This document shows positions 262 to 42,840 of a DNA stretch of 64,000 nucleotides, piece after piece (within the stretch, counting starts at the first letter, position 1; each line of letters begins with the position of its first letter). Made by a program: the position numbers and the translations under genes. The notes under the pieces were generated by a model. It saw nothing but the letters and a program-made list of their open reading frames with translations, ran no database searches and had not been told where the DNA came from. The DNA lies in the NCBI GenBank assembly GCA_035624085.1, contig DASPSE010000411.1:32233-96232 (forward strand), given 5' to 3'. The DNA comes from Terriglobales bacterium (lineage in GTDB: Bacteria; Acidobacteriota; Terriglobia; Terriglobales; Acidobacteriaceae).

Positions 262-3200
262 TCAGAATGCGAAGCGCAACGCGAACTGCATGAAACGCGG
301 CGTGGTTAGCGTGGATAGATATTTGCCGAAATGGCTCGGGTCATATCCCAGCGAAGGTTGAGCAGAACTGCCCACAGGTCCCCGCACGTCATAGCGAACC
401 GAATTCAGAGTGTTGAACGCTTGCCAGCTGAACTCGAGACGCCTCTGCTCACCGAGAGAGAAATCTTTGCTGACTCCGGTATCGATGTTGAACATGCCAT
501 CGCCAATTACGTTGTTGCGGACTCCCGATTCTCCCGGCCATTCTGGGCGGAACGCCGCCTCTGCCGCAGCAGGATTAGCGAAGATGTCTGGGCCGATGTC
601 CACGCCATTAACAATGGCGTGCTTGGGATTGGAAGCCACTGGAGGCGGGCCGTTCGGCATGGCGTCACCTTCGATATTGTAGTTCGTCGCCCAAGTGGGC
701 CCGTTGTCAACCGAAATGGGGAAGCCGCTTGTCCAACGGAATATGCCGGAGACGTTCCATCCTCCAATTAACGCTTCAAGCAGCGAACCTGCGTCGCCCG
801 CGAGCTTCTGGCCTTTGCCGAAGGGCAGATGGTAGACGAGGTTTGCATTCATCTGGTGGAAGGCATTGAAATCAGAAAGCCCGCGCAGTGACAGCGGGTC
901 CCATGCATTGATGACGATCCCTCCTCCATTTAAGTCGGTGCCGGTTCCACCCGTACCCTCATAGGGACCGATTCGCTCGGCGGCCGATGCCTCGTCAAGC
1001 GATTTGGAAAACGTGTAGTTAAACTGGCCCTGCAGGTTGGACCAGCGGGCACTGTAGGTCGCCTGCAACGCGTTGTAGTCGGAAGTACCAATGTTCCGCC
1101 AGCCATAGAGCGAGCTGAACTGCTCGTGGAAGAAGCTGTACGGTCCGTATTTGCTGTGTGGCAGTGCGGGGTTCAGTCCCGTAATGGAGTCAGGCAAATC
1201 CATTTGGAACAGCGAGAAAGTTTCGTTGTGCGGGTAACAAGTCCAGAGCTCATAAATGTTTTGTGTCGCCGTTGGATTGGCAGGGGTGGCTCCAGGTGCG
1301 CAAGCAAGGGAAGAAGCCTGGCTGCTGAGTGCATTTAGAGTAGCGGTTCCCGCCCATGCCGGGAAGAAATTCTCGAAGAACGGTATAGGCTGAATCTGAT
1401 TCACCGGAGTGCCGACGGCAGCAGCCTTCGAGAGCATGGTAGCTGCCTGGAAATACGTCATCTTGCTGGCTGGATCCGTCGGATCGGCGGGCATGGCCAA
1501 ATCCACCTGTAAAGGCAGGCGCCGTCCTATGCTACCCACGTACGCAACCTGAAGTGAGGAGTGGGGAGTAATTTGGCGCGAGAGCGAGAAATTGAACGTG
1601 TGGGCGTAAGGGGTCTTCAAGCTTTGATCCAGGCCCCAATCGTTAGCAAAGGTGGTCGGCGTGTATGGGAACGTGCTCGTCGGCGTCGGGCCAAACAAGC
1701 AGCCGGGACCACTTAATGACGGGCACGGGGGAGGCAAGCAGGACTGACCCGGTGATGCCGGAGTAAGGCAGGTGAAGCGCGGCGCATCGGAGACCGAGAC
1801 CACACCGGCAGGGTCTCCCAGGTCAGTCGCAAGCCCGAAAGAGCCGTGCTGATCAAAGCTATTCACGATGGGAATGCCGAAATGGTCGTAGCTGATGCTA
1901 TAGCCGCCACGAACCGCGAACTGGTCTTTCTTTCCCAGAATCCTTGAAATCCATCCCTCACCTGTATCTGGTGCCCATGCTACTGCTATGCGTGGTGAAA
2001 AATCCCTGTAATCCCAGTTCCAGAAACCCGGACCATGATTGGCGGGTCCGCCGAGGATGAAAGAAATCTCTCCGGCATTGTTGGCCGGCTGGCCCTGCGC
2101 CATTAGGCTGGCGGTGTGATTGAACCAGTCGGCCAGATTTTGATTTGTGCAGCCGCCGGTCGGAGCCGCAACGCACGGTGACACCTGCAAGCCATTGGTT
2201 TCGTAAGGTGGAGCCTCGAGCACCCAGCGTAGGCCGTAAGTCACTGTGAGTCGCGGCGTCATGCGCCACGTATCCTGTCCATAGAATTCGTAATCATTGA
2301 TCGCGTATCGGCGGCTGATGGGCGAGCCCTGGGGCAGCGCGGTGCCATTGCGGGCGAAGTTGTAAATACCGTCGCCTTCGGGGAAAATGCCCAGCACGAT
2401 GGTGGCCGCGTTGTTGTAGTTCGGACCAAAGTTGCTATCCACCGCTGGATAAAGCTGGCCCGTTGCCGGGTTGGTATTGTTGTGCGGATCCAACGGGCTC
2501 GAGGTGCCGACGATTGTTCCAGTGTTGAGGTAGGTCGCATTGGTTTGAACGTCGGAGAACGAGTTGGCGTAGCTGATGTGTTTGTCGCGAATGAGGAATA
2601 TATCTGTGCCGAACTGAAATGTGTGGTTTCCCCGTGGCCGGTTCAAATTGTCGCTGAACTGGTTTTCGGGAACAAACGTAGTAGTCGAACGAGTAAATGG
2701 AACGAGGTTATCAATCCCATTCAGAAGAACTGCCGGATAGCTCGAGACACCCGCATTTTTTACTCCCTGCCGCACAAAACCCCAGTGAAAATCATTAATG
2801 AGCCTTGGATTGAACAGAGAAGTCAATCCGACCGTTGAACCCTTGCTGTCATCCAGCAGTGTCGTCGCGGCCGATTGACCGGGCCATTGTTGCAGTCCGG
2901 GCTCTTTGAAGTTTTGTGTCTCGCCGCGCCAAAACAGGGTTTGCGAACCGTTGGCAGTAACGTGGTAATCGAGCCGCGTTATATATGTGTTGAAACTGGA
3001 GTCAGCATTGGATGCAAACCGGTAACCCAGCGTGTTCAAGCCGTCGCCGGCATTCTCGTTGGGCGTTGGGTACTGCTGGAGGATGCCTGCAACCGCAGAA
3101 CTGGGACCAATGTGGAGCGGATCCATCGCCTTTATCTGGGATGGCCCCAGCGCATAGTACCCTGCCGAGATGTTGCTCACGCCATTGACGGTGCCGCCGG

Positions 3201-4266
3201 GACAGTCAGCTGTGTCCAAGCTGCCATCCGAGTTCCGTTGACATAAGTAAAGGAGATCGCCTGCCCTGAGCGTTGAGCTGGGCACGGTCCGCAGTACGCT
3301 GGTGCCTTGCGCATCACGGCGCCCCTCATAATTGGCGAAGAAGAAGAGCCGGTTGCGCTTAATCGGACCTCCTAACGTCACTCCGAACACGTTGCGCAAG
3401 AGCTTTGGAGCCTTGTTCGACTGGCCACTGGTAATCTGGGCATTCTTCAAGAAGGGATCGTTGGCGCTGAAGATGGTATTACGGTTGTATTCGTAGATTG
3501 ACCCATGAAACTCGTTGGTGCCACTCTTGGTCACCATCGCCACCTGAGCGCCACTGGAATAGCCCGAGTCGGCGTTCGCGTTGGCTGTGGTAACTCTGAA
3601 TTCCTGTACGGAGTCTGGCGGCACGTTGAGCACGCTGGTAAACGCATATCCAAAATTCTGGTCATTCATCCCGATCCCGTCGACCGTTACATTCGATTGG
3701 TCACTGCGCATGCCGTTCACGGCGCCGCTGCGGGTGTCGGTATCGGCATCCACCTGGGTACCAAGGTACGCGACCCCGGGCTGTAGACTCAGCAGCTGAA
3801 CCACGTTACGGTCGGCAATGGGTAACTGCGCGATCTGATTTTCCTCAATGGTATTGCCGAGAGATGCATCCGTGCGATTGACAAGCGGCGTTTCCGCATG
3901 CACGGTGACCGATTCCGCCACGCCTGCGAGCCGAAACTGAATGTTTAAGGTGGAAGGGGTTTTGACAACGAGGTTCAGCTCGGGCACAAGAAAGGTTGCG
4001 AAACCTGTGGCCGCGGCCTCCAGCCGATATTTGCCGGGCGGCACATCCAAGAACTGATATAGTCCGGCGTTATTGCTCGTCGTTTTGCGCTGTAAACCTG
4101 TAGCTGCATCGGTCAGAGTAATGGTTGCACCTGCGACACCAGCACCCGACGGATCAGAAACGCTGCCGTTCAAGGAACTGGTTGACTGTGCCGATGCCGT
4201 CGCCGCCAGAAACGCCAGCGCTAGCTGAGCCGCCCATCGCTTCTTTGGCCAGATCCTGTGTCCCAT
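262..4266 (-). CDS. TonB-dependent outer-membrane receptor with N-terminal carboxypeptidase-regulatory-like domain (TBDR1)
   Basis: 1334-aa ORF with signal peptide (..AFLAATASAQS). N-terminus GSVSDPSGAGVAGATITLTDAATGLQRKTTSNNAGLYQFLDVPPGKYRL is the typical CarboxypepD_reg motif. Plug and barrel landmarks MVTKSGTNEFHGSIYEY and LFFFANYEGRR are present, and the C-terminus ends in an aromatic residue (ALRFAF). Confidence 0.9.
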   Translation of the reverse strand: MGHRIWPKKRWAAQLALAFLAATASAQSTSSLNGSVSDPSGAGVAGATITLTDAATGLQRKTTSNNAGLYQFLDVPPGKYRLEAAATGFATFLVPELNLVVKTPSTLNIQFRLAGVAESVTVHAETPLVNRTDASLGNTIEENQIAQLPIADRNVVQLLSLQPGVAYLGTQVDADTDTRSGAVNGMRSDQSNVTVDGIGMNDQNFGYAFTSVLNVPPDSVQEFRVTTANANADSGYSSGAQVAMVTKSGTNEFHGSIYEYNRNTIFSANDPFLKNAQITSGQSNKAPKLLRNVFGVTLGGPIKRNRLFFFANYEGRRDAQGTSVLRTVPSSTLRAGDLLYLCQRNSDGSLDTADCPGGTVNGVSNISAGYYALGPSQIKAMDPLHIGPSSAVAGILQQYPTPNENAGDGLNTLGYRFASNADSSFNTYITRLDYHVTANGSQTLFWRGETQNFKEPGLQQWPGQSAATTLLDDSKGSTVGLTSLFNPRLINDFHWGFVRQGVKNAGVSSYPAVLLNGIDNLVPFTRSTTTFVPENQFSDNLNRPRGNHTFQFGTDIFLIRDKHISYANSFSDVQTNATYLNTGTIVGTSSPLDPHNNTNPATGQLYPAVDSNFGPNYNNAATIVLGIFPEGDGIYNFARNGTALPQGSPISRRYAINDYEFYGQDTWRMTPRLTVTYGLRWVLEAPPYETNGLQVSPCVAAPTGGCTNQNLADWFNHTASLMAQGQPANNAGEISFILGGPANHGPGFWNWDYRDFSPRIAVAWAPDTGEGWISRILGKKDQFAVRGGYSISYDHFGIPIVNSFDQHGSFGLATDLGDPAGVVSVSDAPRFTCLTPASPGQSCLPPPCPSLSGPGCLFGPTPTSTFPYTPTTFANDWGLDQSLKTPYAHTFNFSLSRQITPHSSLQVAYVGSIGRRLPLQVDLAMPADPTDPASKMTYFQAATMLSKAAAVGTPVNQIQPIPFFENFFPAWAGTATLNALSSQASSLACAPGATPANPTATQNIYELWTCYPHNETFSLFQMDLPDSITGLNPALPHSKYGPYSFFHEQFSSLYGWRNIGTSDYNALQATYSARWSNLQGQFNYTFSKSLDEASAAERIGPYEGTGGTGTDLNGGGIVINAWDPLSLRGLSDFNAFHQMNANLVYHLPFGKGQKLAGDAGSLLEALIGGWNVSGIFRWTSGFPISVDNGPTWATNYNIEGDAMPNGPPPVASNPKHAIVNGVDIGPDIFANPAAAEAAFRPEWPGESGVRNNVIGDGMFNIDTGVSKDFSLGEQRRLEFSWQAFNTLNSVRYDVRGPVGSSAQPSLGYDPSHFGKYLSTLTTPRFMQFALRFAF

Positions 4267-4292: not shown

Positions 4293-4356
4293 ACATAAAA
4301 CGGCTGGTAAGTGAAAGTCAAGCAAAAACGTATTCAGACCTTCATTCATTGTGTAC
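4293..4356 (-). promoter_or_regulatory. Bipartite hexamer site plus sigma70-like promoter upstream of TBDR1
   Basis: On the gene strand: GTACAC (4351-4356), N15, GAATAC (4330-4335), 8 nt containing a T-tract, TTGACT (4316-4321), N17, TTATGT (4293-4298). Same layout as six other sites in the window. Confidence 0.5.
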
Positions 4357-4527: not shown

Positions 4528-5040
4528 CTATTCAAGTGCCGCCACACGCGGATGTCTTTCTAGATACTGGCTAACCAAGCTGGCGCACCGTTCGAGAAAC
4601 TCACGCAAGGCGTTATCAAACGCAGATTCAAAGAAACTATTGATGTCAATTTCCCCAACAACTTTGGAGGTCGCGAAGATGGGTATCACAATCTCAGATC
4701 GAGTAAATTCTGAGTCTGGCAAGTAACGCGGGTCGTCCTTGACCCGTTACACAACGATCGTTTTTCCGGCCGAAGCTGCCGCGCCGCAGATGCCGCTCTC
4801 GAAAGGTATAAGTTTGGTGGGGGTGTCCATTCCGGAATATGGTCCGAGTTGCAGCATTCTGGGGTTCTTTGAATCAACCACGTAGAATACTACCCAGTTA
4901 ATCCGCACCAGGCTCTCTCGTAGTCGGTCCTCGATTTTCTGCATAAGAGACTCGGGTGTTGATGTAGTGAGTGCATGTTGTCTGAACTCTTCGAGAAGTT
5001 TGCTGTAGACTTCCGCACTCATAGTGCCGCCACCTAACAT
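4528..5040 (-). pseudogene. GAF-domain protein (YebR / free-Met-sulfoxide-reductase-like fold) interrupted by an in-frame TAA
   Basis: ORFs 5040->4750 and 4722->4528 are in the same frame and are separated only by TAA at 4747-4749. The joined product (..INWVVFYVV..LGPYSG..GICGAAASAGKTIVV*RVKDDPRYLPDSEFTRSEIVIPIF..GEIDINS..) aligns end to end with single-domain GAF proteins of about 165 aa. Confidence 0.65.
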
Positions 5041-5094
5041 CTCGCTGACATCGCAGAAATTCTTACATCGATTCAGTGAGGTCTTTCTCCCCGA

Positions 5095-6240
5095 TTACGC
5101 GCAGAAAATGGATGCGGTAGCAAGCAGCGCATCATGGCAGGTGAGGACTTCGCTGAGGTTGCACCATTCCTCAACAGCGTGCGCTCCTGCTCCACCAGAA
5201 CCGAATATAACGGTCGGAATACCTGCAGCGGCGATCAACGCCGCGTCTGTCCACCCGCTGAATCCCTGAAAGCGTGGCTCCCGTTTCAATTGGATAGCCG
5301 CTGCTTTGCGCAACGTTGTTACAATCAGTTCTGTTTCGGGCACCTCCAGCGGTTCGCGAACTAGCCCGGTCGTGAACGTTCCTTTGAATCTTGGATTCGG
5401 TTTCGACTCTTGATCCAGGATCGACTTTATTTCATCCTGAATTTTAGTCCGGCTCTCACCCGGAATGGTCCTCCGCTCGACGCTGAGTCTGCAGTGTTCT
5501 GGATACGAAGAAAGTTCCTGTCCTCCACTGATTAATGAAGCATGAATTGATGCCGGACCGAGCAGAGGATGTCGTGGACCTTGCGCCAATATTTGGTTCA
5601 GACGGTCCACACCATTTAAGACTTTGCCCATCGCTACGATCGCGTCGACGCCCAAATCTGGCCGGGAGCCGTGAGCAGCAACACCCGAGGTTTCCACCGT
5701 GAACCAAGCAAAGCCTTTATGAGCGATGACGATATCTAGAGCCGTAGGTTCGGTAACAATTGCCGCGTCTGCGGATACTCGCTTCAAGACGGATTCAGTT
5801 CCAATGCTCGCATGTTCTTCATCACACACCGCGGTTAGGATTATGTCTCCACGAAATCGGAGGCGGGCAGCAGACGCAAGGGTTAGCATCGCAGCAGCGA
5901 CACCGGATTTCATGTCGTAGGATCCACGCCCAAAGAGCTTGTCGCCATCAACGCGTGACGTGTGCGGATTTTTCATGCCAGTGACACCAACAGTATCGAT
6001 GTGCCCATTCAGAAGCAGAGAACGACCGCCGCCCGTGCCGGGTACTCTGGCAATTACACTGACCCTTCCCGGTCGGGGTTCATCAAGCTCGACGCTCGCG
6101 CCAGCTTTTTGGAGCCAGTCCGCTATGTATGCGGCGATCTTGGCTTCACCTGCTCCGCCACGCACGAGTTCAGGATTTACCGAATCGATTGAAACGAGAG
6201 CTTCGATGAGATCGCGAACCTGATCTGGTTGTGTGCTCAT
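5095..6240 (-). CDS. M20 family metallopeptidase (ArgE/DapE-type deacylase)
   Basis: 381 aa with LLLNGHIDTVGV, GRGSYDMKSGVAA and a ..DEEHASIG.. metal-ligand pattern typical of acetylornithine deacetylase / succinyl-DAP desuccinylase relatives. Confidence 0.85.
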   Translation of the reverse strand: MSTQPDQVRDLIEALVSIDSVNPELVRGGAGEAKIAAYIADWLQKAGASVELDEPRPGRVSVIARVPGTGGGRSLLLNGHIDTVGVTGMKNPHTSRVDGDKLFGRGSYDMKSGVAAAMLTLASAARLRFRGDIILTAVCDEEHASIGTESVLKRVSADAAIVTEPTALDIVIAHKGFAWFTVETSGVAAHGSRPDLGVDAIVAMGKVLNGVDRLNQILAQGPRHPLLGPASIHASLISGGQELSSYPEHCRLSVERRTIPGESRTKIQDEIKSILDQESKPNPRFKGTFTTGLVREPLEVPETELIVTTLRKAAAIQLKREPRFQGFSGWTDAALIAAAGIPTVIFGSGGAGAHAVEEWCNLSEVLTCHDALLATASIFCA

Positions 6241-6282: not shown

Positions 6283-6347
6283 ACTGTATCGACCTCTCAA
6301 AGGAAGTCAAGAACAAACATGTACACAAGAGTGACGGCGTAGTATAC
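6283..6347 (-). promoter_or_regulatory. Bipartite hexamer site plus sigma70-like promoter upstream of the M20 peptidase gene
   Basis: On the gene strand: GTATAC (6342-6347), N15, GTGTAC (6321-6326), N10 (atgtttgttc), TTGACT (6305-6310), N16, TACAGT (6283-6288). Lies in the divergent intergenic region shared with dpaL. Confidence 0.5.
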
Positions 6348-6396
6348 GATCTGCGGCCGAGGTATGTTAGCTTTCGAGAAGGGGCTCGATTCGAAC

Positions 6397-7648
6397 ATGA
6401 CAGAGCCGTATAGCTTGTATGAAAATCCCCGTGCTACGCGACAAGGCTGCACCGACACTCCTGAATTCTCCAGTGCTATGTTCGGAGCGGCATGGAACGA
6501 GATTTCTTCCTGGTCAAATTATCGACCTACGCCCTTAATTTCGCTCTCAGGGTTAGCCAAAGCCAAGGGAATAGGAACGATCCTATACAAGGACGAAGGT
6601 GGTCGATTTGGGCTGGGCAGCTTCAAAGCTCTCGGTGGTGCTTACGCGGTTTGCAGGGTGCTGCAAGCAGCAATTCTAGATCGAATGGGAATGTCCCCGA
6701 GTTCAGAAGAACTTCGTCAGGGACGATTTCGGAATGTAACTGAGACGATTACGGTAGCTACTGCGACGGACGGCAACCACGGACGCTCAGTCGCCTGGGG
6801 GGCAAACCAGTTTCATTGCTGCTGCGTGGTTTATGTCCCGAAAAACTGCAGTCAGAGCCGCGGGCTTGCCATTGCGCGGTATGGTGCACTGGTGGTTCGC
6901 TCCGCTGTTGGATATGACGAAACGGTTCGTCAGTGTCTTCAGGATACGGAAGCTCACGGATGGCTGGTTGTCTCAGACACATCTTGGGAGGGCTATGAAA
7001 GGATTCCCGCGACAGTGATGCAAGGCTATACGGTAATGATAAGAGAAGTGCTGGACCAGTTGAGCGCGGCCAAGAGGCCAACCCATGTTTTTGTGCAGGG
7101 CGGCGTCGGGGGCTTAGCAGGAGCGGTGTGCGCTTTCTTCAGCGAGGCATTGAAAGCCCGAAGACCACGGCTGATTGTGGTGGAAGCCCTCAGGAGCGGC
7201 ATGCATGTTTGCGAGCGCACTTGCAGGTAAGCGTGTGTCCCTCGACAAAGTTCAGAGCATCATGGTGGGGCTTGAGAGTGGCGAGGCATCTCCCCTTGCT
7301 TGGAGGCTCATGGAGCAGGGAATCGACTTTTTCATGACGGTGCCTGATTCTGTCGTACCCGATTGTATGCGGCTCCTTGCATCGTCGCCATACGGAGATC
7401 CTCCGATCGTAGCCGGTGAATCCGCAGTGGCCGGCTTAGCAGGATTATTGTATTTGCTCGACAATCCCGCACTTCGCACTAAACTGGAACTGGATTCAAC
7501 GAGCTCAATCCTTCTTTTTGGCACAGAAGCGGACACTGATCCTGACCTCTATTACAAATTCGTAGGAATGTCGGCTGATCAAGTGAGGCGTCGTGCTGAT
7601 TTTGCCGAGCACAGGATTTCCGATTCTGGTCCTGCTTCGATTTCTTGA
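6397..7648 (+). pseudogene. dpaL: Diaminopropionate ammonia-lyase (PLP fold-type II) carrying a 1-nt frameshift
   Basis: The frame-1 ORF carries ..YRPTPL..KDEGGRFGLGSFKALGGAYAV.. (PLP-lysine motif). The continuation PSGAACMF..SIMVGLESGEASPLAW..IVAGESAVAGLAGL is in frame 2 (ORF 7175-7648). The junction RLIVVE|PSGAAC implies one extra base in GAAG at 7183-7186. Confidence 0.75.
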
Positions 7649-13422: not shown

Positions 13423-13464
13423 CAGCTTTCTCTGTAGTTCTTCTGGTGGCGTAAACTCCCTGTG

Positions 13465-17905: not shown

Positions 17906-17927
17906 TTACAGAGCCGTAGGCCGTTTT

Positions 17928-34961: not shown

Positions 34962-35179
34962 ACCCATTAAAGTCGCGGCGCTCATTCGGAACGGAAATCT
35001 ACTCCATGAAAGGTGTCACCCCCCGAGAGCGAGTCGGTTTACTGTGCACGGCGCAGCAACATGAAGCAGTCCAAGGACTCCGACTTGCCTAACCGCCACT
35101 AGGTCGCAATTTCGCTGCGTGGGGAAGTGGAAGAAGTGTTATAGTGCCCGAACTGGAGGTCCAAATCAGAAGTTCCGGG

Positions 35180-36364
35180 ATGACACGCGACATCCAGGCC
35201 GGGTTCAGCCGCAGAGACTGGCTTCGAATGTCGCTGATTGCTGGTGCGGCTGTCGTCACGGGTTTCAATCGTTCGTGGTGGCTGCCGGTTGCCTTCGCCG
35301 AGACGCAGGACGCGTTTCACGGTGGCAAGAAAATTGGTGACGTCGATTTCGTGGGAGAGATTCCGGTCGAGATGAACGCGGTCATCGGGACGGAGCTCGA
35401 TGGCCGGCTTTACACGGATCTTTCCACCCTGGCTCCTGACCATCCTATTACTCCGACAAAGGACTTCTACATACGCACGTGCGTTTCGAAGCTGCTGGGG
35501 GATGACACGCGCGGATGGACAATACGGCTTGCGGGGCTTGCTCGGGAACGGGCCAATCTCAGCTTGGCCCGCCTCACAGCCATGGAAAAACCCTTGGGCG
35601 TCCATGTCATGGAGTGTGTCGGAAATCAGCGTGGATGTCATTTCGGACTCGTGAGCGCTGCATCCTGGACGGGCGTGGCGTTGTCCGAGATTTTGAATAC
35701 GGTCCACATTGGACCGCGCGCGTCGCACGTGTTGGTCTCAGGGTTCGATCGTTACCAAGCCGAGTCGGTCAGCTCGATTCCGGGCGCCAGTTGGATATTC
35801 AAGCTTGAAGAGCTGAGGGCAAGGGGTGCGTTTCTGGCAACGCGGATGAACGGCGAATTGCTGCCGAGAGATCATGGCGCGCCGGTACGCCTAGTCGTGC
35901 CCGGTTGGTACGGATGCGCGTGCATCAAGTGGGTAAATGAAATCGCTCTCGTTCCCGATGATGCCCCGGCAACTTCGCAAATGAAGGAGTATGCTGAGCG
36001 AACGGGGCAGCAAGGGATCCCGGATCTCGCAAGAGACTACCTTCCTGCTGCCATGGAGTATGCCGCCACACCAATCAGAATCGAACGATGGTCGGTGGAC
36101 GGCGGGTTTAAGTACCGTGTCGTGGGACTTCTTTGGGGTGGCTCGGCGCCCGTCAAAAAACTTGAGATTCGCTTCAATCCCGATGAGGAGTACGTTTCTG
36201 TAGATCACGTCGACACCCCCGGCCAGAACTCCTGGCGCTTCTGGACCCACACTTGGTCTCCTCGAAGCGAGGGCACATATCTGATACGCCTCCGAGTGAA
36301 AGATCCGATCGTGCAGGCAAAGCGCCTGGAGTCTGGCCGCTATGAGCGCGCGGTTGTGATCTGA
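35180..36364 (+). CDS. Molybdopterin-dependent oxidoreductase of the sulfite-oxidase family, Tat-exported
   Basis: Twin-arginine signal SRRDWLRMSLIAGAAVV. Core pattern HVMECVGN (Mo-ligand Cys region), RMNGELLPRDHGAPVRLVVPGWYGCACIKWV, and a C-terminal Ig-like dimerisation-type domain. Confidence 0.8.
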   Translation: MTRDIQAGFSRRDWLRMSLIAGAAVVTGFNRSWWLPVAFAETQDAFHGGKKIGDVDFVGEIPVEMNAVIGTELDGRLYTDLSTLAPDHPITPTKDFYIRTCVSKLLGDDTRGWTIRLAGLARERANLSLARLTAMEKPLGVHVMECVGNQRGCHFGLVSAASWTGVALSEILNTVHIGPRASHVLVSGFDRYQAESVSSIPGASWIFKLEELRARGAFLATRMNGELLPRDHGAPVRLVVPGWYGCACIKWVNEIALVPDDAPATSQMKEYAERTGQQGIPDLARDYLPAAMEYAATPIRIERWSVDGGFKYRVVGLLWGGSAPVKKLEIRFNPDEEYVSVDHVDTPGQNSWRFWTHTWSPRSEGTYLIRLRVKDPIVQAKRLESGRYERAVVI

Positions 36365-36381
36365 GAGATGAGGATAGCGAA

Positions 36382-38037
36382 TTGCCGGAAAGGAACCCGA
36401 ACACCTTCTTGTTGCGCTTGAGCGCTTGGTTGCTTCTTGCTGCGACTGGCTGGGTGTGTGTTTCCCGGCCGGCGCTAGCTCAAACCGACGTCGGCTCACC
36501 CGGCGAAAAGATCGGTTGGGTGCCCCGGGCGATTCTCGAACGCCCGGTTCCAGTGCGTCAGGGGATTGGCAACCTTCATGAAAAAGTAACCACGTCTTCG
36601 CTAGAGGCTCAGACGTTTTACGATCAAGGACTTGATTATTTCTCTGGGTATGACTGGATCGAGGCGGCTCGGTCGTTCAATCAGGCGCTGCGTCTCGATC
36701 CAAGTTTGGCAATGGCATATATCCGGCTGAGCGAAGTATACACTCAGCTACAGGACAACTCCGCGGCGCGCATTGCCTGCAACAAAGCCCAGTCGCTTTC
36801 CAGCCGGGTGAGCGAGCGCGAACGGGCCCGGATTCAGATCCGTGCCGATCACCTTGACTACATCGAAGATCCTGATTCCGAGCAAAAGTACGTTGTTTGG
36901 AGAAAGGCGATCAGTGAGGCGCTCACGGCGAATCTTACGGATTGGGGGCTGTGGATCCTGCTTGGCAATGCTATCGGCGACGGCGAAGGTATAGAATCGG
37001 TAGCGGACTACGAAACTGCGCTCGCGTTCTCTACAAACAATTCCGCGGCCCATCATATTCTCGCCCATACATTCGAACATCTCGGTCAGACGCAACAAGC
37101 GCTTGCGCATGCCGAAGCCTTTGTGCGCGTGGCTCCCTCCATTCGTCATGCCCATCACATGCTGGGACATGAATTGCGAAGACTCGGACGGACCGCAGAG
37201 GCGATCACGGAATTTCGCAAGGCAGACGAACTGGAAAACTCCTATTATCGTACCGAGAATATTCCCGCCAGATATGATTGGCACCGCGCTCACAATCTTC
37301 TTCTCCTCGCCATGTGCTACGAGGCGTTGGGGCAGATGAAAGCCGCGGCACCGCTTCTGCACGAGGCCTTTTCGCTTCCCGCCTATACCGACACCGCCGA
37401 GTATTATCGGCGCGAATGGCCGGATTTCCTGCTCGATCGCGGCCGGCCGGAGGAATCGCTCACGGCAGCGCGGGAATTGATCGAAAGCAGTGCCTGGCCC
37501 TCGGGCCGCTTAGCCGGTCATGAGTCGGCCGGCAGAGCCCTGCTGGCACTGCACCGCAGCGATGAAGCCAAGAACGAGCTCGAATTGGCGGAACGAGAGA
37601 TGGAACGCCTTCCGGCGCATTTGTCCAGCGAGCTGCCCGGAAGCGGAATCTTGAGCGGTGAAATATTGCTACGCGATCAAAAGCAGCCGGAAGCCGACGC
37701 AGTGTTCAAGAAGGTCGAAGCCGACCTTCGAGCTATGCCCGGGGCCGACACCTGGAGTCTGGCGTTGTTTCAACTCCAGTTTATCGCCCAGTTGGCTCGG
37801 CAATTTGGCGATTGGAATCTCGCGGAATTCACTGCCCGACAAATGATCGAGCATGATCCCAGCTATGCCGGCGGCTACTACGCCCTGGGCCTGGCTGCGG
37901 AGCACTCAGGTGATACGGCTTCGGCACGTCGGCAATTTCAGATGGCGGAAAAGCTTTGGGGTAGCGCCGATCCTGGATTACCCGAGCTCGTCCACCTCCA
38001 GGAAAGCTTGGCGGCAACGAGGCATGGCTCTGATTGA
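36382..38037 (+). CDS. Exported TPR-repeat protein
   Basis: 551 aa with signal peptide (..CVSRPALAQ) and multiple TPR-like helical pairs (AQTFYDQGLDYF..WIEAARSFNQALRLDP, AMAYIRLSEVY.., YYALGLAAEHSGD). The start is a TTG taken from the ORF track. Confidence 0.7.
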   Translation: MPERNPNTFLLRLSAWLLLAATGWVCVSRPALAQTDVGSPGEKIGWVPRAILERPVPVRQGIGNLHEKVTTSSLEAQTFYDQGLDYFSGYDWIEAARSFNQALRLDPSLAMAYIRLSEVYTQLQDNSAARIACNKAQSLSSRVSERERARIQIRADHLDYIEDPDSEQKYVVWRKAISEALTANLTDWGLWILLGNAIGDGEGIESVADYETALAFSTNNSAAHHILAHTFEHLGQTQQALAHAEAFVRVAPSIRHAHHMLGHELRRLGRTAEAITEFRKADELENSYYRTENIPARYDWHRAHNLLLLAMCYEALGQMKAAAPLLHEAFSLPAYTDTAEYYRREWPDFLLDRGRPEESLTAARELIESSAWPSGRLAGHESAGRALLALHRSDEAKNELELAEREMERLPAHLSSELPGSGILSGEILLRDQKQPEADAVFKKVEADLRAMPGADTWSLALFQLQFIAQLARQFGDWNLAEFTARQMIEHDPSYAGGYYALGLAAEHSGDTASARRQFQMAEKLWGSADPGLPELVHLQESLAATRHGSD

Positions 38038-38130: not shown

Positions 38131-38196
38131 GTAGACAATCGCAGGCACATTGTATACAAGTTTCCTGTTGACTTTGCGCACCGGCTGTCCTACGTT
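38131..38196 (+). promoter_or_regulatory. Bipartite hexamer site plus sigma70-like promoter upstream of the CapA-like gene
   Basis: GTAGAC (38131-38136), N15, GTATAC (38152-38157), N10 (aagtttcctg), TTGACT (38168-38173), N17, TACGTT (38191-38196). Confidence 0.5.
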
Positions 38197-38254
38197 ATCA
38201 GTCCAAAAGCAAGCGGCCGTGCCAGGTGATTCTCTCAAGTTGACACTTGGAGGA

Positions 38255-39706
38255 ATGAGGATGCGACTCCATCGCTGCTCCACCTTTCGCCGTGTCGTTG
38301 TAGCCGCAGCATTCTCCACTCTTGGCCCCATCGCTCTCAGCTTACAAGCTGGCGGCCAGTCTGCCATACTAGGGAAACCTTCGGACCAAAAGGAACTGGC
38401 CTGCAATGTGCCCGACGGGTTCAGCGTAGCAGCCGTGGGCGATGTGCTCACGCCGCAGCCATTTTCGATGATAGCCGATCCGCAGTTTCAGCACTCAGCC
38501 GACATTCTGCGCAACGCCGATATTGGTTTCGGCAATTTCGAGGGCAATATCATCGACATCCGCTACTTCAAAGGCTACCCCGCTGGCTCTCTCGATGATG
38601 TGGATATTACCGGCACCCCCGACCTGGCAAAGAGTCTCAAAAGCATGGGTTTCAAAATGATGTCGCACGCCAACAATCACAGCACCGACTGGGGGATTGA
38701 GGGCATGTTCCTGACTGATCGGGCGTTGGATGAAGCGGGAATTGTCCATGCCGGGACCGGCGAGAATCGCGCGGCTGCTCGCGCGGCCCGCTATCTGAAC
38801 ACGCCCAAGGGACGGGTCGGCTTGGTATCCCTCGCCTCCACTGTCGGTCCCAACTCGATGGCATTGGCACCGGTAGGCGAGGCACCGGGGCGGCCGGGTG
38901 TGGATGCTCTCCGGACAACGCGCTACGTGCTGGTAACTGCGGAAATGATGCGGGACTTGCGCAAGATTCGCGACGCACAGCCAAAAGGATCCTCGGGAAG
39001 CTTTGGGGAGAAGGAGAACCCGAATGAGCTTACCATGTTCGGCACGCATTATAGGGTGGGCGAACATACCGGATTGACTTTTGAGATGAATACGGTGGAC
39101 CTCCACGAGATCCTAACGGCGATTCGCCAGGGAAAACTCAACTCAGACTTCGTGATTGTCACAATCCATGCGCACGATCCCGGCAACTGGAGCGAACTGC
39201 CAGCCGATTTCCTCCCCGCGCTGGCGCATGATGCGATCGATGCCGGTGCGGACATGTTCATCGGGCACGGCCCGCACCGCCTGCGTGGGATTGAGATTTA
39301 CAAAGGGAAGCCGATCTTTTACAGTCTCGGAAATCTCATCTATCAGGATCAACTGCAGCAGCCGATGACAGAATCGCTGTACGAGGATCTGAAACTCGAT
39401 CCGCGGCAAACCACCGATGCCGATCTTGGCATGGAATTCGTCGAGCACGACTTTCCTGACGTTGTTTATTACCAAAGCGTGATCGCAGTAAGCGAGTTCC
39501 GGCAGGGACAGGTTTCCGAAATCAAGCTGTATCCCCTGGATCTCGGCTTCACGTCGAGGTTCGCCGATAAAGGGGTGCCGCGACTGGCCTCGCCGGAAGT
39601 GGCCCGAACGATTCTGGAGCGGCTCCAAAGGCTGTCGCATCCCTATGGCACTACTATCAGCATCGAGCAAAACATAGGCGTCGTTCGTATTTCGAATGGG
39701 AGTTAA
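38255..39706 (+). CDS. CapA-family (PGA_cap, metallophosphatase-fold) exported protein
   Basis: GGAGGA RBS before the ATG at 38255, plus a signal peptide. GNFEGNI.., MMSHANNHSTDWGIEGM..T...LDEAGIVHAGTGEN, HAHDPGNW and GHGPHRLRGIEIYKGKPIFYSLGN are typical of CapA/PGA_cap proteins. Confidence 0.8.
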   Translation: MRMRLHRCSTFRRVVVAAAFSTLGPIALSLQAGGQSAILGKPSDQKELACNVPDGFSVAAVGDVLTPQPFSMIADPQFQHSADILRNADIGFGNFEGNIIDIRYFKGYPAGSLDDVDITGTPDLAKSLKSMGFKMMSHANNHSTDWGIEGMFLTDRALDEAGIVHAGTGENRAAARAARYLNTPKGRVGLVSLASTVGPNSMALAPVGEAPGRPGVDALRTTRYVLVTAEMMRDLRKIRDAQPKGSSGSFGEKENPNELTMFGTHYRVGEHTGLTFEMNTVDLHEILTAIRQGKLNSDFVIVTIHAHDPGNWSELPADFLPALAHDAIDAGADMFIGHGPHRLRGIEIYKGKPIFYSLGNLIYQDQLQQPMTESLYEDLKLDPRQTTDADLGMEFVEHDFPDVVYYQSVIAVSEFRQGQVSEIKLYPLDLGFTSRFADKGVPRLASPEVARTILERLQRLSHPYGTTISIEQNIGVVRISNGS

Positions 39707-39829
39707 CGCGCAAAACCCTGTCGAACATGTGTGTACTGGTGCGCGCATTGAGGCCTGTCCGATGACTGGCAGCGTCGCCCAAGTTTTGGTTCCAAGCGCA
39801 TACGACCAAGCGAGGTTGCAAAATCCACT

Positions 39830-41056
39830 ATGAGAAAAACCGCCGTCACATTTCCTGTACTGTTTGTATCTCTCATCTCATGCAGCCCCTTAAGAGGGCA
39901 GGCTGCGCCTGACCGCTACCACCAGAAGCTGCAGCCTGTGCTGGAAAAACTGATCCAGCAGCAGAAGTTGCCGGGCTTTGCGATCGCCGTCGTGGAGAAT
40001 GACCGCGTCGCGTATGCCGCCGGTTTTGGCCTCAAGAACGTTAGCCGCCAGGACGACCCCATCACAACCCGGTCGCTCTTCCACATGTGCTCGATCACTA
40101 AACCTTTCGTCGCCACGTCCATCATGCAGCTTGTCGAGCGCGGCCAGATCGATCTCGACAAGCCGGTCACGACTTACCTGCCATATTCCCGCCTGGCGGA
40201 CGAGCGGTACAAGGTTATCACCGTCCGCCAGATGGTGACTCACACTTCCGGCATGCCCGACGTGGAAGATTACGAGTGGGACAAGCCGCAATACGACGCC
40301 GGCGCCCTGGAGCGGTACGTGCGCAGCCTTGCCGATCTCCGGCTCATCTTCGCGCCTGGCACGCAGTACAAGTACAGCAACATGGCCTTTGAAGTCCTCG
40401 GCGATGTGATTGCGAAGGTCTCAGGCGAATCATTTGAGGATTACGTCCAGCATCACATCCTGACTCCGCTTGGCATGAAGGACAGCACGCTGCTGGTCAA
40501 GCAAGCCGACCCGAAGCTGCTCGCCTGGCCTCACGAACTGGATGCGGCCGGCAAACCGTTTCCCTGCAAGGTATACACCTACAATCGAATGCATTCGCCT
40601 AGCTCCGATCTGCACTCGAATGTGGTGGACATGTCGCGTTGGGCTATCGCCAACTTGAATCGCGGCGAGCTGGATGGCATGAGAATCCTCAAGACATCGA
40701 CCTACGACGTAATGTGGAAATCAGTGGATGACTTCCGGTTGACCGGAGACGTTCCGGCAACCGCAGACGCGCGTATCGGAATTAGCTGGCGTCTGGGCGA
40801 ATATCGCGGGAACAAGATCGTCTGGCACAACGGTTCGGACACCGGTTTCCGTTCCGGATTCGCGATGCTTCCGGACAAGAAGACCGCAGTGGTGTGGGTG
40901 GCCAACGGCGAGTGGCTCCGGGTCGGAGACGAGGTTACTCGCGCAGCTCTGGACACGGCCTTAGGGCTGGAGCCGCAGCCGATTGAAGCGAAGCCCGTTA
41001 CCGCGGAGGCGTTGTCCACCGCCGCTCCGCCCAATTGCCCGAGCCTCGAGGATTGA
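39830..41056 (+). CDS. S12-type serine hydrolase (class-C beta-lactamase / DD-peptidase / D-aminopeptidase family), exported
   Basis: Signal peptide; SxxK motif in FHMCSITKPF; YxN motif in YKYSNMAFEVLG; HTSGMPD. Confidence 0.85.
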   Translation: MRKTAVTFPVLFVSLISCSPLRGQAAPDRYHQKLQPVLEKLIQQQKLPGFAIAVVENDRVAYAAGFGLKNVSRQDDPITTRSLFHMCSITKPFVATSIMQLVERGQIDLDKPVTTYLPYSRLADERYKVITVRQMVTHTSGMPDVEDYEWDKPQYDAGALERYVRSLADLRLIFAPGTQYKYSNMAFEVLGDVIAKVSGESFEDYVQHHILTPLGMKDSTLLVKQADPKLLAWPHELDAAGKPFPCKVYTYNRMHSPSSDLHSNVVDMSRWAIANLNRGELDGMRILKTSTYDVMWKSVDDFRLTGDVPATADARIGISWRLGEYRGNKIVWHNGSDTGFRSGFAMLPDKKTAVVWVANGEWLRVGDEVTRAALDTALGLEPQPIEAKPVTAEALSTAAPPNCPSLED

Positions 41057-41115
41057 ACCAAGTGCCGTCTTCGAAGCGTCCTCAGCAGATGTCGAAATTG
41101 GAAGGAGGAAGAGCC

Positions 41116-42840
41116 ATGACGCATGAACAGCGTAGCCGCAGGGATTTTCTAGGCCTGGCCGGGACGGGAATCGCCGCTGCCATGGGTAATTTCGCCGTCA
41201 CTGGCCAAGCGCAGGGCGCTGATTCCGACCCGGGGAAAGCCGACCTCGTGGTCTTCAACGCCAAAGTCTATACGGTCGACTCTCAGATGCCGAAAGCGCA
41301 GGCCTTTGCCGTCAAGGCCGGCCGATTCATCGCTGTGGGGACCACCGACGACATGAAAGCGTTCATCGGCAAAGGGACCCAAACCTTCGACGCCAAGCAG
41401 ATGACAATCGTGCCCGGCTTCATCGACTGCCACAATCACGCTCCTGGCAACACATTGCTGTACGAAGTTCTTGTCGGCAATCCGTATATTCCCGAGGTTG
41501 TCACTATTGCCAGCATCCTCGATAAGCTCCGCACCAAGGCCAGCCAAACTCCACCCGAGTTCTGGGTGACGGGGTACTACTACGACGACACCAAGGTGAA
41601 GGAAAACCGTCAGCTCAACATCCAGGACCTCGACCAAGTCTCGAAGGATCTGCCGGTCGTCGTCCATCACGAGGGCGGGCACACCGCATACTACAACAGC
41701 AAGGCATTCGAGATGGCCGGTATTAATCGGAACACACCCAATCCTTTTGGCGGAACTTTCGACCACGATGCGAACGGCGATCTGAACGGTCGGGTTACCG
41801 ACAATGCAATGAGGGTGGTCAACAGCGTGGGCAAGCGGCCGACCTATACGCCCGAACAGAAGCTGCAACGCGACCGCGATGGGCTGGCGTTCATCTCCAA
41901 GCAGTACGTCCGCTTCGGATTGACCAGCGTTGTTCACGAAAGTGGCGATCTGTTAGCCCTGCAGCAGGTGCGTGAGCGCGGAGAACTTCTGCACCGGGTG
42001 CAGTACGAATCCAGCGGCGATGTGATCGATTCGCTCATCGCTGCCGGCATCGGAACTGGCTTCGGCGACGAGTGGATCCGCATCGGAGCTACGTCTGAGC
42101 ACACGTGCGACGGCTCTTTCGAAGAGCGGACGATGTCGCGCAGCAGTCCTTATCCCGGCTCCCAACCGCCTTACCACGGCAATGTCACGACGACGCAAAA
42201 TGACCTCAATGCCTGGGTCGAGCGGGTGCACCGAGCGGGGATTGAGGCCAACTGCCACGCGAATGGGGACGTCGCTATCGACATGGTGCTCACGGCATAC
42301 GAGCGCGCACTGCAGCTGATGCCGCGAAACAACGTCCGTCACAAGATCACCCATTGCACGCTACTTAATGATGATCTCGTGCACCGTATCAAGGCGATCG
42401 GCGTCGTTCCCAATGTGTTTACTACGTATCTTTATTGCGATGGCGAGAAATTCCATTTTTATGGCGAAGAGCTCATGAACCGGTGCGTGGCCTTTCGTAC
42501 TTTGCTCGATGCCGGGATTCCGGCGGCGACAGGGACGGACTGCCCTCCGGGACCGTTCGACCCGCGAGTCGGCATTCAAGGTATGGTGACGCGCACAGGC
42601 TGGAATGGAGAGACCTGGGGAGCCAAACAACGGGTCAGCGTAGACGAGGCGCTGCGGGTCAACACGCTCAACGGCGCCTATTATATGCATGAGGAAGTGA
42701 TCAAGGGATCCATCACGCCCGGCAAACTGGCCGACTTCGTCGTACTGGCTGACGATCTCCACACGGTCGATCCGAACAAAATCAAGGATATCGAAATCGT
42801 GCGCACGGTGACAGGCGGCTCGACGGTCTATCCGGTGTGA
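41116..42840 (+). CDS. Amidohydrolase-3 (YtcJ-like) metal-dependent hydrolase, Tat-exported
   Basis: GGAGGA RBS; twin-arginine signal SRRDFLGLAGTGIAAAMG; VPGFIDCHNH metal-binding motif; HANGD..; a C-terminal GSITPGKLADFVVL motif typical of this family. Confidence 0.85.
   Translation: MTHEQRSRRDFLGLAGTGIAAAMGNFAVTGQAQGADSDPGKADLVVFNAKVYTVDSQMPKAQAFAVKAGRFIAVGTTDDMKAFIGKGTQTFDAKQMTIVPGFIDCHNHAPGNTLLYEVLVGNPYIPEVVTIASILDKLRTKASQTPPEFWVTGYYYDDTKVKENRQLNIQDLDQVSKDLPVVVHHEGGHTAYYNSKAFEMAGINRNTPNPFGGTFDHDANGDLNGRVTDNAMRVVNSVGKRPTYTPEQKLQRDRDGLAFISKQYVRFGLTSVVHESGDLLALQQVRERGELLHRVQYESSGDVIDSLIAAGIGTGFGDEWIRIGATSEHTCDGSFEERTMSRSSPYPGSQPPYHGNVTTTQNDLNAWVERVHRAGIEANCHANGDVAIDMVLTAYERALQLMPRNNVRHKITHCTLLNDDLVHRIKAIGVVPNVFTTYLYCDGEKFHFYGEELMNRCVAFRTLLDAGIPAATGTDCPPGPFDPRVGIQGMVTRTGWNGETWGAKQRVSVDEALRVNTLNGAYYMHEEVIKGSITPGKLADFVVLADDLHTVDPNKIKDIEIVRTVTGGSTVYPV

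What the first reader, a model, noticed from the sequence alone, without database searches (positions are those of the whole stretch)
262..42840. TBDR and peptidase supercluster whose enzyme families lean toward D-amino-acid, gamma-glutamyl and diamino-acid chemistry
Seen: within about 43 kb there are three intact TBDRs plus two TBDR remnants, and at least eleven predicted exported or lipid-anchored hydrolases. These are M20 (ArgE/DapE type), D-aminoacylase, a GCPII-like M28, an S58/DmpA remnant, M14, two S41, M61, a CapA/PGA_cap protein, an S12 DD-peptidase/D-aminopeptidase-type hydrolase and an amidohydrolase-3. Cytoplasmic dpaL, metC, a second PLP enzyme and a GntR regulator accompany them. 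Established family knowledge: D-aminoacylases act on N-acyl-D-amino acids; DmpA and S12 members include D-aminopeptidases and DD-peptidases; GCPII cleaves gamma-linked glutamate; CapA is tied to poly-gamma-glutamate; M14 includes gamma-D-Glu-DAP peptidases; DapE-type M20 enzymes and DpaL act on diamino acids. Inference: the region may be a peptide-utilisation locus, analogous in logic to polysaccharide utilisation loci, specialised for peptidoglycan stem peptides, poly-gamma-glutamate or other D-residue-containing necromass peptides. This is a hypothesis from family membership only.
Basis: inference. Interest (0 to 1): 0.6.

Follow-up and report, generated by a model that had tools for sequence, protein, structure and literature searches.

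The report
Co-regulated receptor and peptidase gene locus
A peat-soil acidobacterium carries about 44 kb of outer-membrane receptor genes and exported peptide-cutting enzyme genes that share one regulatory DNA motif found nowhere else in its genome, so it looks like a single peptide-scavenging system, though a specialisation for D-amino-acid or gamma-linked peptides is only partly supported.

Summary
Three intact Oar-type TonB-dependent receptors, two receptor fossils and all eleven named enzyme families are at the stated coordinates. Three corrections: M20 has no signal peptide, S58 and dpaL are broken, and the PGA_cap protein is closest to the peptide epimerase MslH, not a hydrolase.

The main new result is a two-box operator, GTRYAC-N15-GTRYAC, lying 7-10 nt upstream of a TTGAC -35 box. 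It heads seven promoters between 4.3 and 38.2 kb. The exact pattern occurs six times in the 4.57-Mb genome, and all six are here. The only regulator in the locus, a GntR/FCD protein, has no orthologue in 60 relatives. The region is therefore best read as one regulon, PUL-like in logic.

The D/gamma specialisation is only partly supported. A lipoprotein of the D-aminoacylase clade, a full-length GCPII-clade M28 and the MslH-like epimerase (all eight catalytic residues kept) point that way. M14, S41, M61, S12 and the second amidohydrolase cannot be assigned. No peptidoglycan-specific or poly-gamma-glutamate-specific marker is present.

The locus is not conserved in relatives. One other genus has a compact M14, D-aminoacylase, beta-lactamase-fold, M28 and receptor cluster. 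An earlier scan note describes a GntR, receptor and M14 locus in another acidobacterium.

The parts
262..4266 (-). TBDR1, an Oar-type TonB-dependent receptor (1334 aa) with a signal peptide
   Evidence: Pfam CarboxypepD_reg + Plug + OMP_b-brl_4; N-terminus
4317..4356 (-). Operator/promoter module 1 (boxes 4330-4335 with one mismatch and 4351-4356; -35 at 4317-4322), driving TBDR1
   Evidence: (D13)
4528..5094 (-). GAF-domain gene broken by an in-frame stop at 4747-4749
   Evidence: the stop is reproduced in contigs of three runs
5095..6240 (-). M20 ArgE/DapE-family deacylase, no signal peptide (cytoplasmic)
   Evidence: Pfam; TIGR01910 232.9 bits, above its 217.6 cut-off
6306..6347 (-). Module 2 (boxes 6321-6326 and 6342-6347), driving M20 and divergent from dpaL
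6364..7648 (+). Diaminopropionate ammonia-lyase gene, frameshifted near 7175-7230
   Evidence: two PALP ORFs; the N-terminal half scores above the equivalog cut-off of NF006058; no indel variant in three runs
7898..8746 (+). GntR/FCD transcription regulator (probable start about 8075), the candidate cognate regulator
   Evidence: Pfam GntR + FCD; no orthologue in 60 relatives
8822..10054 (+). DUF917 / S-Me-THD-like protein with a signal-peptide-like N-terminus
10250..11911 (-). Amidohydrolase of the D-aminoacylase clade, lipoprotein (lipobox LLSGC)
   Evidence: 1M7J 3e-67, 3GIP 3.5e-58
12042..12068 (.). Module 3 operator, 131 nt upstream of the D-aminoacylase gene; its strong TTGACT points the other way, into metC
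12205..17280 (-). Apparent operon M28 (GCPII-like, exported; probable start 17238), 526-aa PALP enzyme and MetC cystathionine beta-lyase
   Evidence: gaps of 72 and 42 nt
17289..17352 (+). Module 4 (boxes 17289-17294 and 17310-17315, TTGACT-N16-TATAAC). It points into the TBDR fragment and lies about 50 nt from the M28 start
17372..19432 (.). Rearrangement scar: internal TBDR fragment, truncated IS1595 transposase (17742-18497, -) and 5'-truncated S58 peptidase (18668-19432, +)
   Evidence: identical in contigs of three runs
19490..28956 (-). Apparent operon TBDR2, S41b, S41a and M14, all exported, with a TBDR 3' fossil at 23630-23664
29036..29077 (-). Module 5, driving TBDR2; a molybdoenzyme-gene remnant lies at 29143-29243
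   Evidence: (D10, D13)
29321..34841 (-). Apparent operon TBDR3 and M61 glycyl-aminopeptidase-family protein with a PDZ domain
34896..34961 (-). Module 6, driving TBDR3 and divergent from the Mo-enzyme/TPR pair
35144..38037 (+). Tat-exported sulfite-oxidase-family molybdoenzyme and an exported TPR protein
38131..38196 (+). Module 7 (boxes 38131-38136 with one mismatch and 38152-38157; TTGACT 38168-38173; TACGTT 38191-38196)
38150..44166 (+). Apparent operon: MslH-like PGA_cap protein (probable start 38255), S12 beta-lactamase-fold hydrolase, Tat-exported Amidohydro_3, a 182-aa unknown and DapB

Best explanation
The stretch from about 262 to 44166 is one lineage-specific regulon, probably controlled by the local GntR/FCD regulator acting on seven copies of a two-box operator. 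It couples three Oar-type TonB-dependent receptors to a set of exported, mostly exo-acting peptide and amide hydrolases, one exported peptide epimerase, and a small cytoplasmic set (M20 deacylase, MetC, a PALP enzyme, formerly DpaL). The proposed working is as follows. An effector derived from the substrate changes binding of the GntR protein at the boxes just upstream of the -35 elements. The receptors then take peptide-like compounds across the outer membrane. Periplasmic and lipid-anchored enzymes trim these, largely from the C-terminal end (M14, S41, GCPII-like M28, S12, D-aminoacylase), with an MslH-like enzyme able to invert a C-terminal residue. Small products are deacylated and deaminated in the cytoplasm to pyruvate and ammonia. 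The substrate class is peptide-like and includes some non-canonical linkages (N-acyl-D or L-Xaa-D-Xaa amides, acidic C-termini), but it is not resolved further. Shown here: the gene families, the closest solved relatives, and the operator and its uniqueness. The export signals were read by eye only. Inferred: who binds the operator, the direction of transport, the substrates, and the operon structure.
For: The exact pattern GTRYAC-N15-GTRYAC occurs 6 times in 4.57 Mb, always inside window 6321-34961. Other spacings give 0-3 hits each, and the reversed-pattern control gives 0. Allowing one mismatch and requiring TTGAC within 32 nt gives 10 sites genome-wide, 7 of them here and each in front of a transcription unit; the other three lie in coding sequence. 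Aligning the seven modules shows invariant columns only in the two boxes, a T-run and the -35 box, with divergent spacers. That argues for constraint rather than recent copying. The only regulator gene in the locus is GntR/FCD, and it has no orthologue in 60 relatives, like the operator. Nine enzymes and DUF917, TPR and the Mo enzyme carry export signals. Subfamily links: D-aminoacylase, GCPII, MslH with D11, E44, N87, H88, D91, H259, H261 and H295 all conserved (residue list from PMC10406935). Of 14 other Oar-type TBDR genes in this genome that have a same-strand downstream gene, only one is followed by a peptidase-like gene, against two of three here. An M14, D-aminoacylase, beta-lactamase-fold, M28 and TBDR cluster recurs independently in G015 at 26-39% identity. 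M61-M28 are adjacent in G019, and S12 lies next to two MslH-like genes in G038.
Against: No inner-membrane transporter, TonB or ExbBD lies in the locus. No expression data exist. The operators lie upstream of -35, which is unusual for GntR repressors. Module 3 points the wrong way, and module 4 drives a dead receptor fragment. Several members are pseudogenes, and an IS scar lies mid-locus, so the system may be decaying. The locus is not conserved. PALP526, GntR and (within the same family) PGA_cap have no orthologues in relatives, and M28 and D-aminoacylase homologues reach only 40-51% identity. Neighbourhoods of 80 metagenomic D-aminoacylase homologues and 29 phylum-wide M14 homologues rarely contain the other families. 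Signal peptides were judged by eye, not by a predictor.
Confidence: 0.55

Rival explanations
1. One reading: the regulon is dedicated to D-residue-containing or gamma-linked peptides, such as peptidoglycan stem peptides, poly-gamma-glutamate or other necromass peptides.
For: A lipoprotein of the D-aminoacylase / N-acyl-D-Glu deacylase clade. A full-length GCPII-clade M28. An exported MslH-like epimerase with a complete catalytic set. An S12 enzyme whose distant relatives include DD-peptidases, ClbP and D-peptidases. The G015 cluster again joins a D-aminoacylase, a beta-lactamase-fold protein, M28 and M14. 5-oxoprolinase genes pxpABC lie next door. The closest metagenomic D-aminoacylase contig has dpaL directly upstream.
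Against: The S12 enzyme is about as close to esterases and class C beta-lactamases as to DD-peptidases and ClbP. The M14 matches no solved M14 structure at all. S41, M61 and the second amidohydrolase carry no D/gamma signal. No amidase, LD-carboxypeptidase, NlpC/P60, gamma-glutamyltransferase or muropeptide permease family appeared. dpaL and S58 are broken. GCPII-like and D-aminoacylase-like genes are ubiquitous multi-copy families in relatives. A motif comparison made from memory, not tool-tested, suggests that the Lys binding the glutamate side chain in human GCPII is Gly here.
Confidence: 0.2
2. Export rather than import: like Oar of Myxococcus xanthus, the receptors secrete the peptidases encoded next to them across the outer membrane.
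For: All three receptors have the Oar-subclass architecture, a PF13620 N-terminal extension plus Plug plus barrel. Oar with that architecture is required for secretion of the protease PopC (PMC6434023). TBDR2 and TBDR3 are directly followed by exported peptidase genes. There is no inner-membrane importer in the locus.
Against: Only one such case is known. There are about 41-45 Oar-type receptor genes in this genome, most not next to peptidases. Lipoprotein and Tat signals suggest that several enzymes stay in the periplasm or at the membrane. Cytoplasmic catabolic enzymes in the same regulon fit uptake better.
Confidence: 0.12
3. Not a functional unit: a rearrangement-prone, decaying region in which a receptor promoter module was spread by duplication, and unrelated hydrolase genes accumulated.
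For: Segmental duplication of TBDR, operator and Mo gene, and of S41. An IS1595 fragment, two receptor fossils and three further broken genes. Module 4 drives a dead gene and module 3 faces metC antisense. No synteny in 40-60 relatives.
Against: Modules also head non-receptor units (M20, D-aminoacylase, PGA_cap operon), with unrelated spacers but conserved boxes. The exact motif is absent from the remaining 4.5 Mb, which holds about 40 other receptor genes. Parts of the family combination recur independently in G015, G019 and G038.
Confidence: 0.1

Closest known systems
Polysaccharide utilisation loci of Bacteroidota (SusC/SusD type), defined as operons or regulons encoding binding, degradation and uptake of one substrate class (PMC6298971)
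   Same: A TonB-dependent outer-membrane transporter sits in the same regulon as exported degradative enzymes and a dedicated regulator, with stepwise extracytoplasmic breakdown.
   Different: No SusD-like lipoprotein. The receptors are Oar-type (PF13620/PF25183), not SusC. The enzymes are peptidases and amidohydrolases, not CAZymes. The regulator is GntR/FCD, not a hybrid two-component or ECF system. The phylum is Acidobacteriota.
RagAB oligopeptide importer of Porphyromonas gingivalis (bioRxiv 10.1101/755678)
   Same: Shows that TonB-dependent transporters can import protease-generated peptides.
   Different: RagA is SusC-like and works with a RagB lid. No such partner is present here, and peptide import by Oar-type receptors is untested.
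Oar TonB-dependent transporter of Myxococcus xanthus (PMC6434023)
   Same: Same domain architecture as the three receptors, and a functional link to a protease.
   Different: Oar exports PopC. The transport direction here is unknown, and popC is not encoded beside oar in an operator-defined regulon.
MslH, Ca(II)-dependent C-terminal Trp epimerase of lasso peptide MS-271 (PDB 8GQ9; PMC10406935)
   Same: Full-length similarity (E 5e-66, residues 92-506 against 5-428), with all eight catalytic and metal residues conserved.
   Different: The window protein has a signal peptide. It sits with hydrolases and receptors, and no lasso-peptide biosynthesis gene family appeared. A catabolic periplasmic role would be new for this family.
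D-aminoacylase of Alcaligenes faecalis (1M7J) and N-acyl-D-glutamate deacylase (3GIP)
   Same: Closest solved relatives of the 10250-11911 product (3e-67 and 3.5e-58).
   Different: The window protein is a predicted lipoprotein. Carbohydrate de-N-acetylases also belong to the same clade (9KB1, 1e-43), so activity on D-amino-acid amides is likely but not certain.
Earlier scan finding e1-2311095: GntR + TonB receptor + giant M14 + oxoprolinase-type locus in another soil acidobacterium
   Same: A GntR regulator, an Oar-type receptor and an M14 peptidase of the large acidobacterial family. A GntR-M14-TBDR arrangement was also seen here in G181.
   Different: Different gene set (HyuA/HyuB, MFS, DUF2891) and no shared operator. 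G181 shows no GTRYAC two-box motif.

Membership tests
Bacteroidota-type PUL | SusC-like transporter paired with an adjacent SusD-like lipoprotein | tested here: not met
   No SusD family among the Pfam hits for any gene in 262-44166. The receptors are PF13620 + PF07715 + PF25183.
Bacteroidota-type PUL | Co-regulated degradative enzymes for one substrate class | tested here: inconclusive
   A shared operator heads seven units. Co-expression is untested because no RNA run is listed.
TBDR-centred utilisation locus (CUT-locus logic) | TBDR plus degradative enzymes plus a regulator plus an inner-membrane transporter | tested here: not met
   The first three are present. No transporter family was found in 262-44166, and the upstream flank is a polysaccharide-synthesis cluster.
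GntR family, FadR/FCD subfamily regulon | Winged-helix GntR domain plus C-terminal FCD domain | tested here: met
   PF00392 2.3e-13 and PF07729 4.1e-16.
GntR family, FadR/FCD subfamily regulon | Operators built on GT-Nx-AC inverted repeats and bound by the regulator | not testable with these tools
   The boxes GTATAC / GTACAC fit the GT..AC core, which I recall from the GntR literature and did not check. Binding needs EMSA or DAP-seq.
Oar subclass of TonB-dependent transporters | CarboxypepD_reg N-terminal extension + Plug + 22-strand barrel | tested here: met
   architecture as described in PMC6434023.
D-aminoacylase (amidohydrolase superfamily) | Closest characterised relatives are D-aminoacylases | tested here: met
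   1M7J 3e-67 and 3GIP 3.5e-58. The NCBIfam subfamily PRK09061 scores 254 bits, below its 340 cut-off.
D-aminoacylase (amidohydrolase superfamily) | Metal and catalytic residues, and D-stereospecific activity | not tested
   No residue-level alignment was printed. Activity needs an assay.
GCPII / M28B glutamate carboxypeptidase | PA + M28 + TFR-dimer architecture, full-length similarity | tested here: met
   Pfam; 3FEC 5.3e-95 over residues 75-718.
GCPII / M28B glutamate carboxypeptidase | Glutamate-specific S1' pocket | tested here: inconclusive
   Only a comparison with a remembered human motif (NKYAGE against NGYEAV here), which would replace Lys699 by Gly.
MslH-type peptide epimerase (PGA_cap fold) | Catalytic dyads His88/Asp91 and His295/Asp11, and Ca ligands Glu44, Asn87, His259, His261 | tested here: met
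   All eight align to identical residues (residue list from PMC10406935).
MslH-type peptide epimerase (PGA_cap fold) | Encoded in a lasso-peptide biosynthetic cluster | tested here: not met
   No lasso cyclase, B1/B2 protease or precursor family. The NCBIfam equivalog scores 258.8 bits, below its 700 cut-off.
Peptidoglycan stem-peptide catabolism or recycling | Amidase, LD-carboxypeptidase, MpaA-type M14, L-Ala-D/L-Glu epimerase, muropeptide permease | tested here: not met
   None of these families appeared. The M14 matches no solved M14 structure.
Poly-gamma-glutamate degradation | PgdS-type NlpC/P60 hydrolase or gamma-glutamyltransferase | tested here: not met
   Neither family appeared. The PGA_cap protein resembles MslH rather than membrane-anchored CapA.

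The most novel reading that the evidence does not exclude
The regulon is a dedicated 'invert and trim' pathway for D-residue-containing or N-blocked peptides. Oar-type receptors import them. A periplasmic MslH-family enzyme epimerises the C-terminal residue. A lipoprotein D-aminoacylase, an S12 enzyme and C-terminus-directed peptidases (M14, S41, GCPII-like) then release amino acids. This would be the first catabolic role for the MslH/PGA_cap epimerase family and the first substrate class assigned to Oar-type receptors in Acidobacteriota.
Probability: 0.15. Interest if true: 0.75.

Novelty: new variant of a known kind. Interest (0 to 1): 0.5.

Why it matters
Acidobacteriota are dominant in peat and soil and encode dozens of Oar-type TonB-dependent receptors, none with an assigned substrate. 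A locus in which three such receptors, about ten exported peptide-active enzymes and a private regulator are tied together by an operator unique in the genome gives a defined set of testable parts: seven binding sites, one regulator and several expressible enzymes. These could be used to study how such bacteria take up organic nitrogen, including D-amino-acid-containing microbial necromass, a large and poorly understood soil nitrogen pool. It also suggests a possible degradative role for MslH-like epimerases, so far known only from lasso-peptide biosynthesis.

Tried and rejected

2. No RNA holder is listed for the stretch, so co-expression could not be examined.

3. The operator was sought in 40 relatives. 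Hit numbers equal the reversed-pattern control, and the similar-looking hits in G002, G008, G009 and G014 lie in coding sequence with no window-protein homologue nearby.

4. Three further one-mismatch sites with TTGAC nearby, on C350 and C467, lie in coding sequence. The C467 pair was checked.

5. PALP526 was used as a synteny anchor in 80 genomes of other phyla. None of the locus genes came with it except M28 once and M20-like genes six times.

6. D-aminoacylase was used as an anchor in 80 metagenome contigs, and M14 in 29 phylum-wide loci. There was almost no recurrence of the other families.

7. PDB searches for the M14, both whole and as the N-terminal domain at E up to 1, gave no meaningful hit. 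The ESM Atlas returned only unnamed M14 clusters.

8. The terminator scan of 19-39 kb found fewer sites than shuffled sequence and none in the intergenic gaps, so operon borders remain inferred from spacing.

9. NCBIfam could not name the molybdoenzyme, the regulator, S41 or M61.

10. A literature search found no paper using 'peptide/protein utilization locus'.

11. G181's GntR-M14-TBDR locus has no GTRYAC two-box motif.

Full report
**Observation**

- Three receptors (262-4266, 25417-28956, 31419-34841) carry CarboxypepD_reg, Plug and OMP_b-brl_4 domains.
- Two receptor fossils exist. One is an internal fragment at about 17372-17905 with frame breaks. The other is a 35-nt 3'-end relic at 23630-23664 between the two S41 genes.
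- N-termini read by eye show a signal peptide, lipobox or Tat motif for the D-aminoacylase-like protein (LLSGC), M28, M14, both S41, M61, PGA_cap, S12 (LISC) and the second amidohydrolase (SRRDFL). DUF917, the TPR protein and the molybdoenzyme also have one.
- M20, DpaL, MetC, the 526-aa PALP enzyme and the regulator have none.
- Several genes are broken: dpaL by a frameshift, the GAF gene by an in-frame stop, and S58 and the IS1595 transposase by truncation.
- TBDR2/TBDR3 (with operator and Mo gene) and S41a/S41b are local duplications.
- Per-run contigs from three peat metagenome runs that may be the source samples reproduce 4000-22354 with no difference, lesions and scar included. They break only at the S41 repeat.

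**Subfamily assignment**
- The 10250-11911 product is closest to Alcaligenes D-aminoacylase (3e-67) and N-acyl-D-glutamate deacylase (3.5e-58). A carbohydrate de-N-acetylase is also in range.
- The M28 matches GCPIII/GCPII over its full length (5e-95).
- The PGA_cap protein matches the lasso-peptide epimerase MslH over its full length (5e-66; NCBIfam 259 bits, below the 700 cut-off). All eight residues that the MslH paper defines as catalytic or Ca-binding are identical in the alignment.
- M20 passes the ArgE/DapE subfamily cut-off. MetC passes a cystathionine beta-lyase equivalog. The N-terminal half of dpaL and DapB pass their equivalogs.
- S12 is about as far from esterases and class C beta-lactamases as from Pab87, ClbP and DD-peptidases.
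- The second amidohydrolase matches only uncharacterised hydrolases.
- The M14 matches no solved structure. It belongs to a family of about 870 aa present in 90 of 151 sampled genomes of the phylum.
- S41, M61, the molybdoenzyme and the regulator cannot be named.

**The operator**

Following a lead in earlier scan notes, I found a two-box motif, GTRYAC-N15-GTRYAC, followed after 7-10 nt by TTGAC and a TAnnnT -10 element.
- The exact pattern occurs six times in the 4.57-Mb assembly, all within window 6321-34961. Other spacings give 0-3 hits each, and the reversed-pattern control gives 0.
- Allowing one mismatch and requiring TTGAC within 32 nt gives ten sites genome-wide, seven of them here. 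They lie in front of TBDR1, M20 (divergent from dpaL), the D-aminoacylase gene, the dead receptor fragment (about 50 nt from the M28 operon start), TBDR2, TBDR3 (divergent from Mo-TPR) and the PGA_cap operon. The other three are in coding sequence.
- In the alignment of the seven modules, invariant columns lie almost only in the boxes, the T-run and the -35 box.
- Given the short same-strand gaps, nearly every gene between 262 and 44166 lies in a unit headed by this module.
- The only regulator gene in the locus is GntR/FCD, and the GT..AC core fits that family (a point recalled from the literature, not checked here).

**Comparative genomics**
- The regulator has no orthologue in 60 relatives; the best match is 35% identical. 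The operator does not cluster in any of 40 relatives.
- PALP526 has no match in 60 relatives.
- The MslH-like gene is found in 0 of 24 same-family genomes and 4 of 16 genomes of the sister family.
- M28 and D-aminoacylase homologues are ubiquitous but reach only 40-51% identity, the same as paralogues within this genome.
- These tallies include genomes flagged as unpublished (G010, G041, G046, G047, G048, G050, G052, G055, G084). One of the four PGA_cap hits (G048) and two weak GntR hits (G046, G055) rest on them. No named example below does.
- Partial recurrences are independent by their low identity. G015 has M14, D-aminoacylase, Beta-lactamase2 and M28 in a row, divergent from an Oar-type receptor. 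G019 has M61 next to M28. G038 has S12 next to two MslH-like genes. G181 has GntR-M14-TBDR without this operator.
- Broad anchors showed almost no linkage: 80 PALP526 loci, 80 metagenomic D-aminoacylase loci and 29 M14 loci.

**Background within the genome**

There are about 41-45 Oar-type receptor genes. Of 14 others that have a same-strand downstream gene, only one is followed by a peptidase-like hydrolase. Upstream of the window lies a polysaccharide-synthesis cluster, so TBDR1 is the left border.

**Reading**

The best-supported explanation is a private, GntR-controlled, receptor-centred peptide-scavenging regulon. Three enzymes point to non-canonical linkages. Most of the exported enzymes act at or near a free C-terminus. 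The D/gamma specialisation remains a minority reading. Export by Oar-like receptors (PMC6434023) and 'decaying accretion' are real rivals. The missing inner-membrane transporter, the operator position upstream of -35, the misdirected module 3 and the pseudogenes are unexplained.

**Novelty**

No paper in the searched library describes such a locus. The logic is that of PULs (PMC6298971) and of TonB-dependent peptide uptake (bioRxiv 10.1101/755678). I therefore rate it a new variant of a known kind, of moderate interest.

Noticed in passing
window 13465-15045; loci L002-L081: The 526-aa PALP enzyme belongs to a very large family, about 60% identical across Actinomycetota, Acidobacteriota and Chloroflexota. 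In 58 of 80 genome loci a second 439-aa PALP enzyme follows 28 nt downstream. In 23 of 80 an Ala_racemase_N + D-ser_dehydrat protein lies divergently upstream. Here MetC takes the partner's place. The function is unknown.
   Followed up: partly
L099 12681-20000 and L100 (G015:C5): A compact M14 (942 aa), D-aminoacylase, Beta-lactamase2 and GCPII-like M28 operon, divergent from an Oar-type receptor, in another genus of the same family, at 26-39% identity to the window proteins.
   Followed up: partly
L125 2-2479: The closest metagenomic homologue of the D-aminoacylase-like gene (60% identity) has a dpaL gene directly upstream. This hints at a functional link between the two that the window keeps only as a broken dpaL.
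   Followed up: no
window 44422-46824: pxpA, pxpC and pxpB 5-oxoprolinase genes lie convergent to the end of the PGA_cap operon, followed by two octopine-dehydrogenase-like genes and a DHDPS-like gene. These belong to a neighbouring cluster covered by another finding.
   Followed up: no
window 22203-23867: A contig from a fourth peat study, about 90% identical, joins the M14/S41a gap directly to the start of S41b (depth 3, 33-nt side). This suggests a related strain with a single S41 gene, and therefore a recent tandem duplication here.
   Followed up: no
window 8822-10054: A DUF917 / S-Me-THD-like protein with a clear signal-peptide-like N-terminus, encoded directly after the regulator. An exact operator-pattern match (9620-9646) lies inside its coding sequence.
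   Followed up: no
window 35144-36364 and 4528-5094: A Tat-exported sulfite-oxidase-family molybdoenzyme (MsrP is among its weak matches) and a broken single-domain GAF gene lie in the same regulon as MetC and a cysteine-synthase-like enzyme. This may be a sulfur-amino-acid side theme.
   Followed up: no
L082 837 and 4087; L083 10014; L085 10033: Operator-pattern hits in relatives fall in near-identical conserved sequence with no window-protein homologue nearby. By eye it reads as a coding motif, which was not checked. It is a source of false positives for this pattern.
   Followed up: yes
L106 (G000:C2:12233-32232): Directly upstream of the window lies a polysaccharide/O-antigen-type biosynthesis cluster: flippase, Wzy-like ligase, glycosyltransferases, DegT aminotransferase and a PAPS reductase.
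   Followed up: partly
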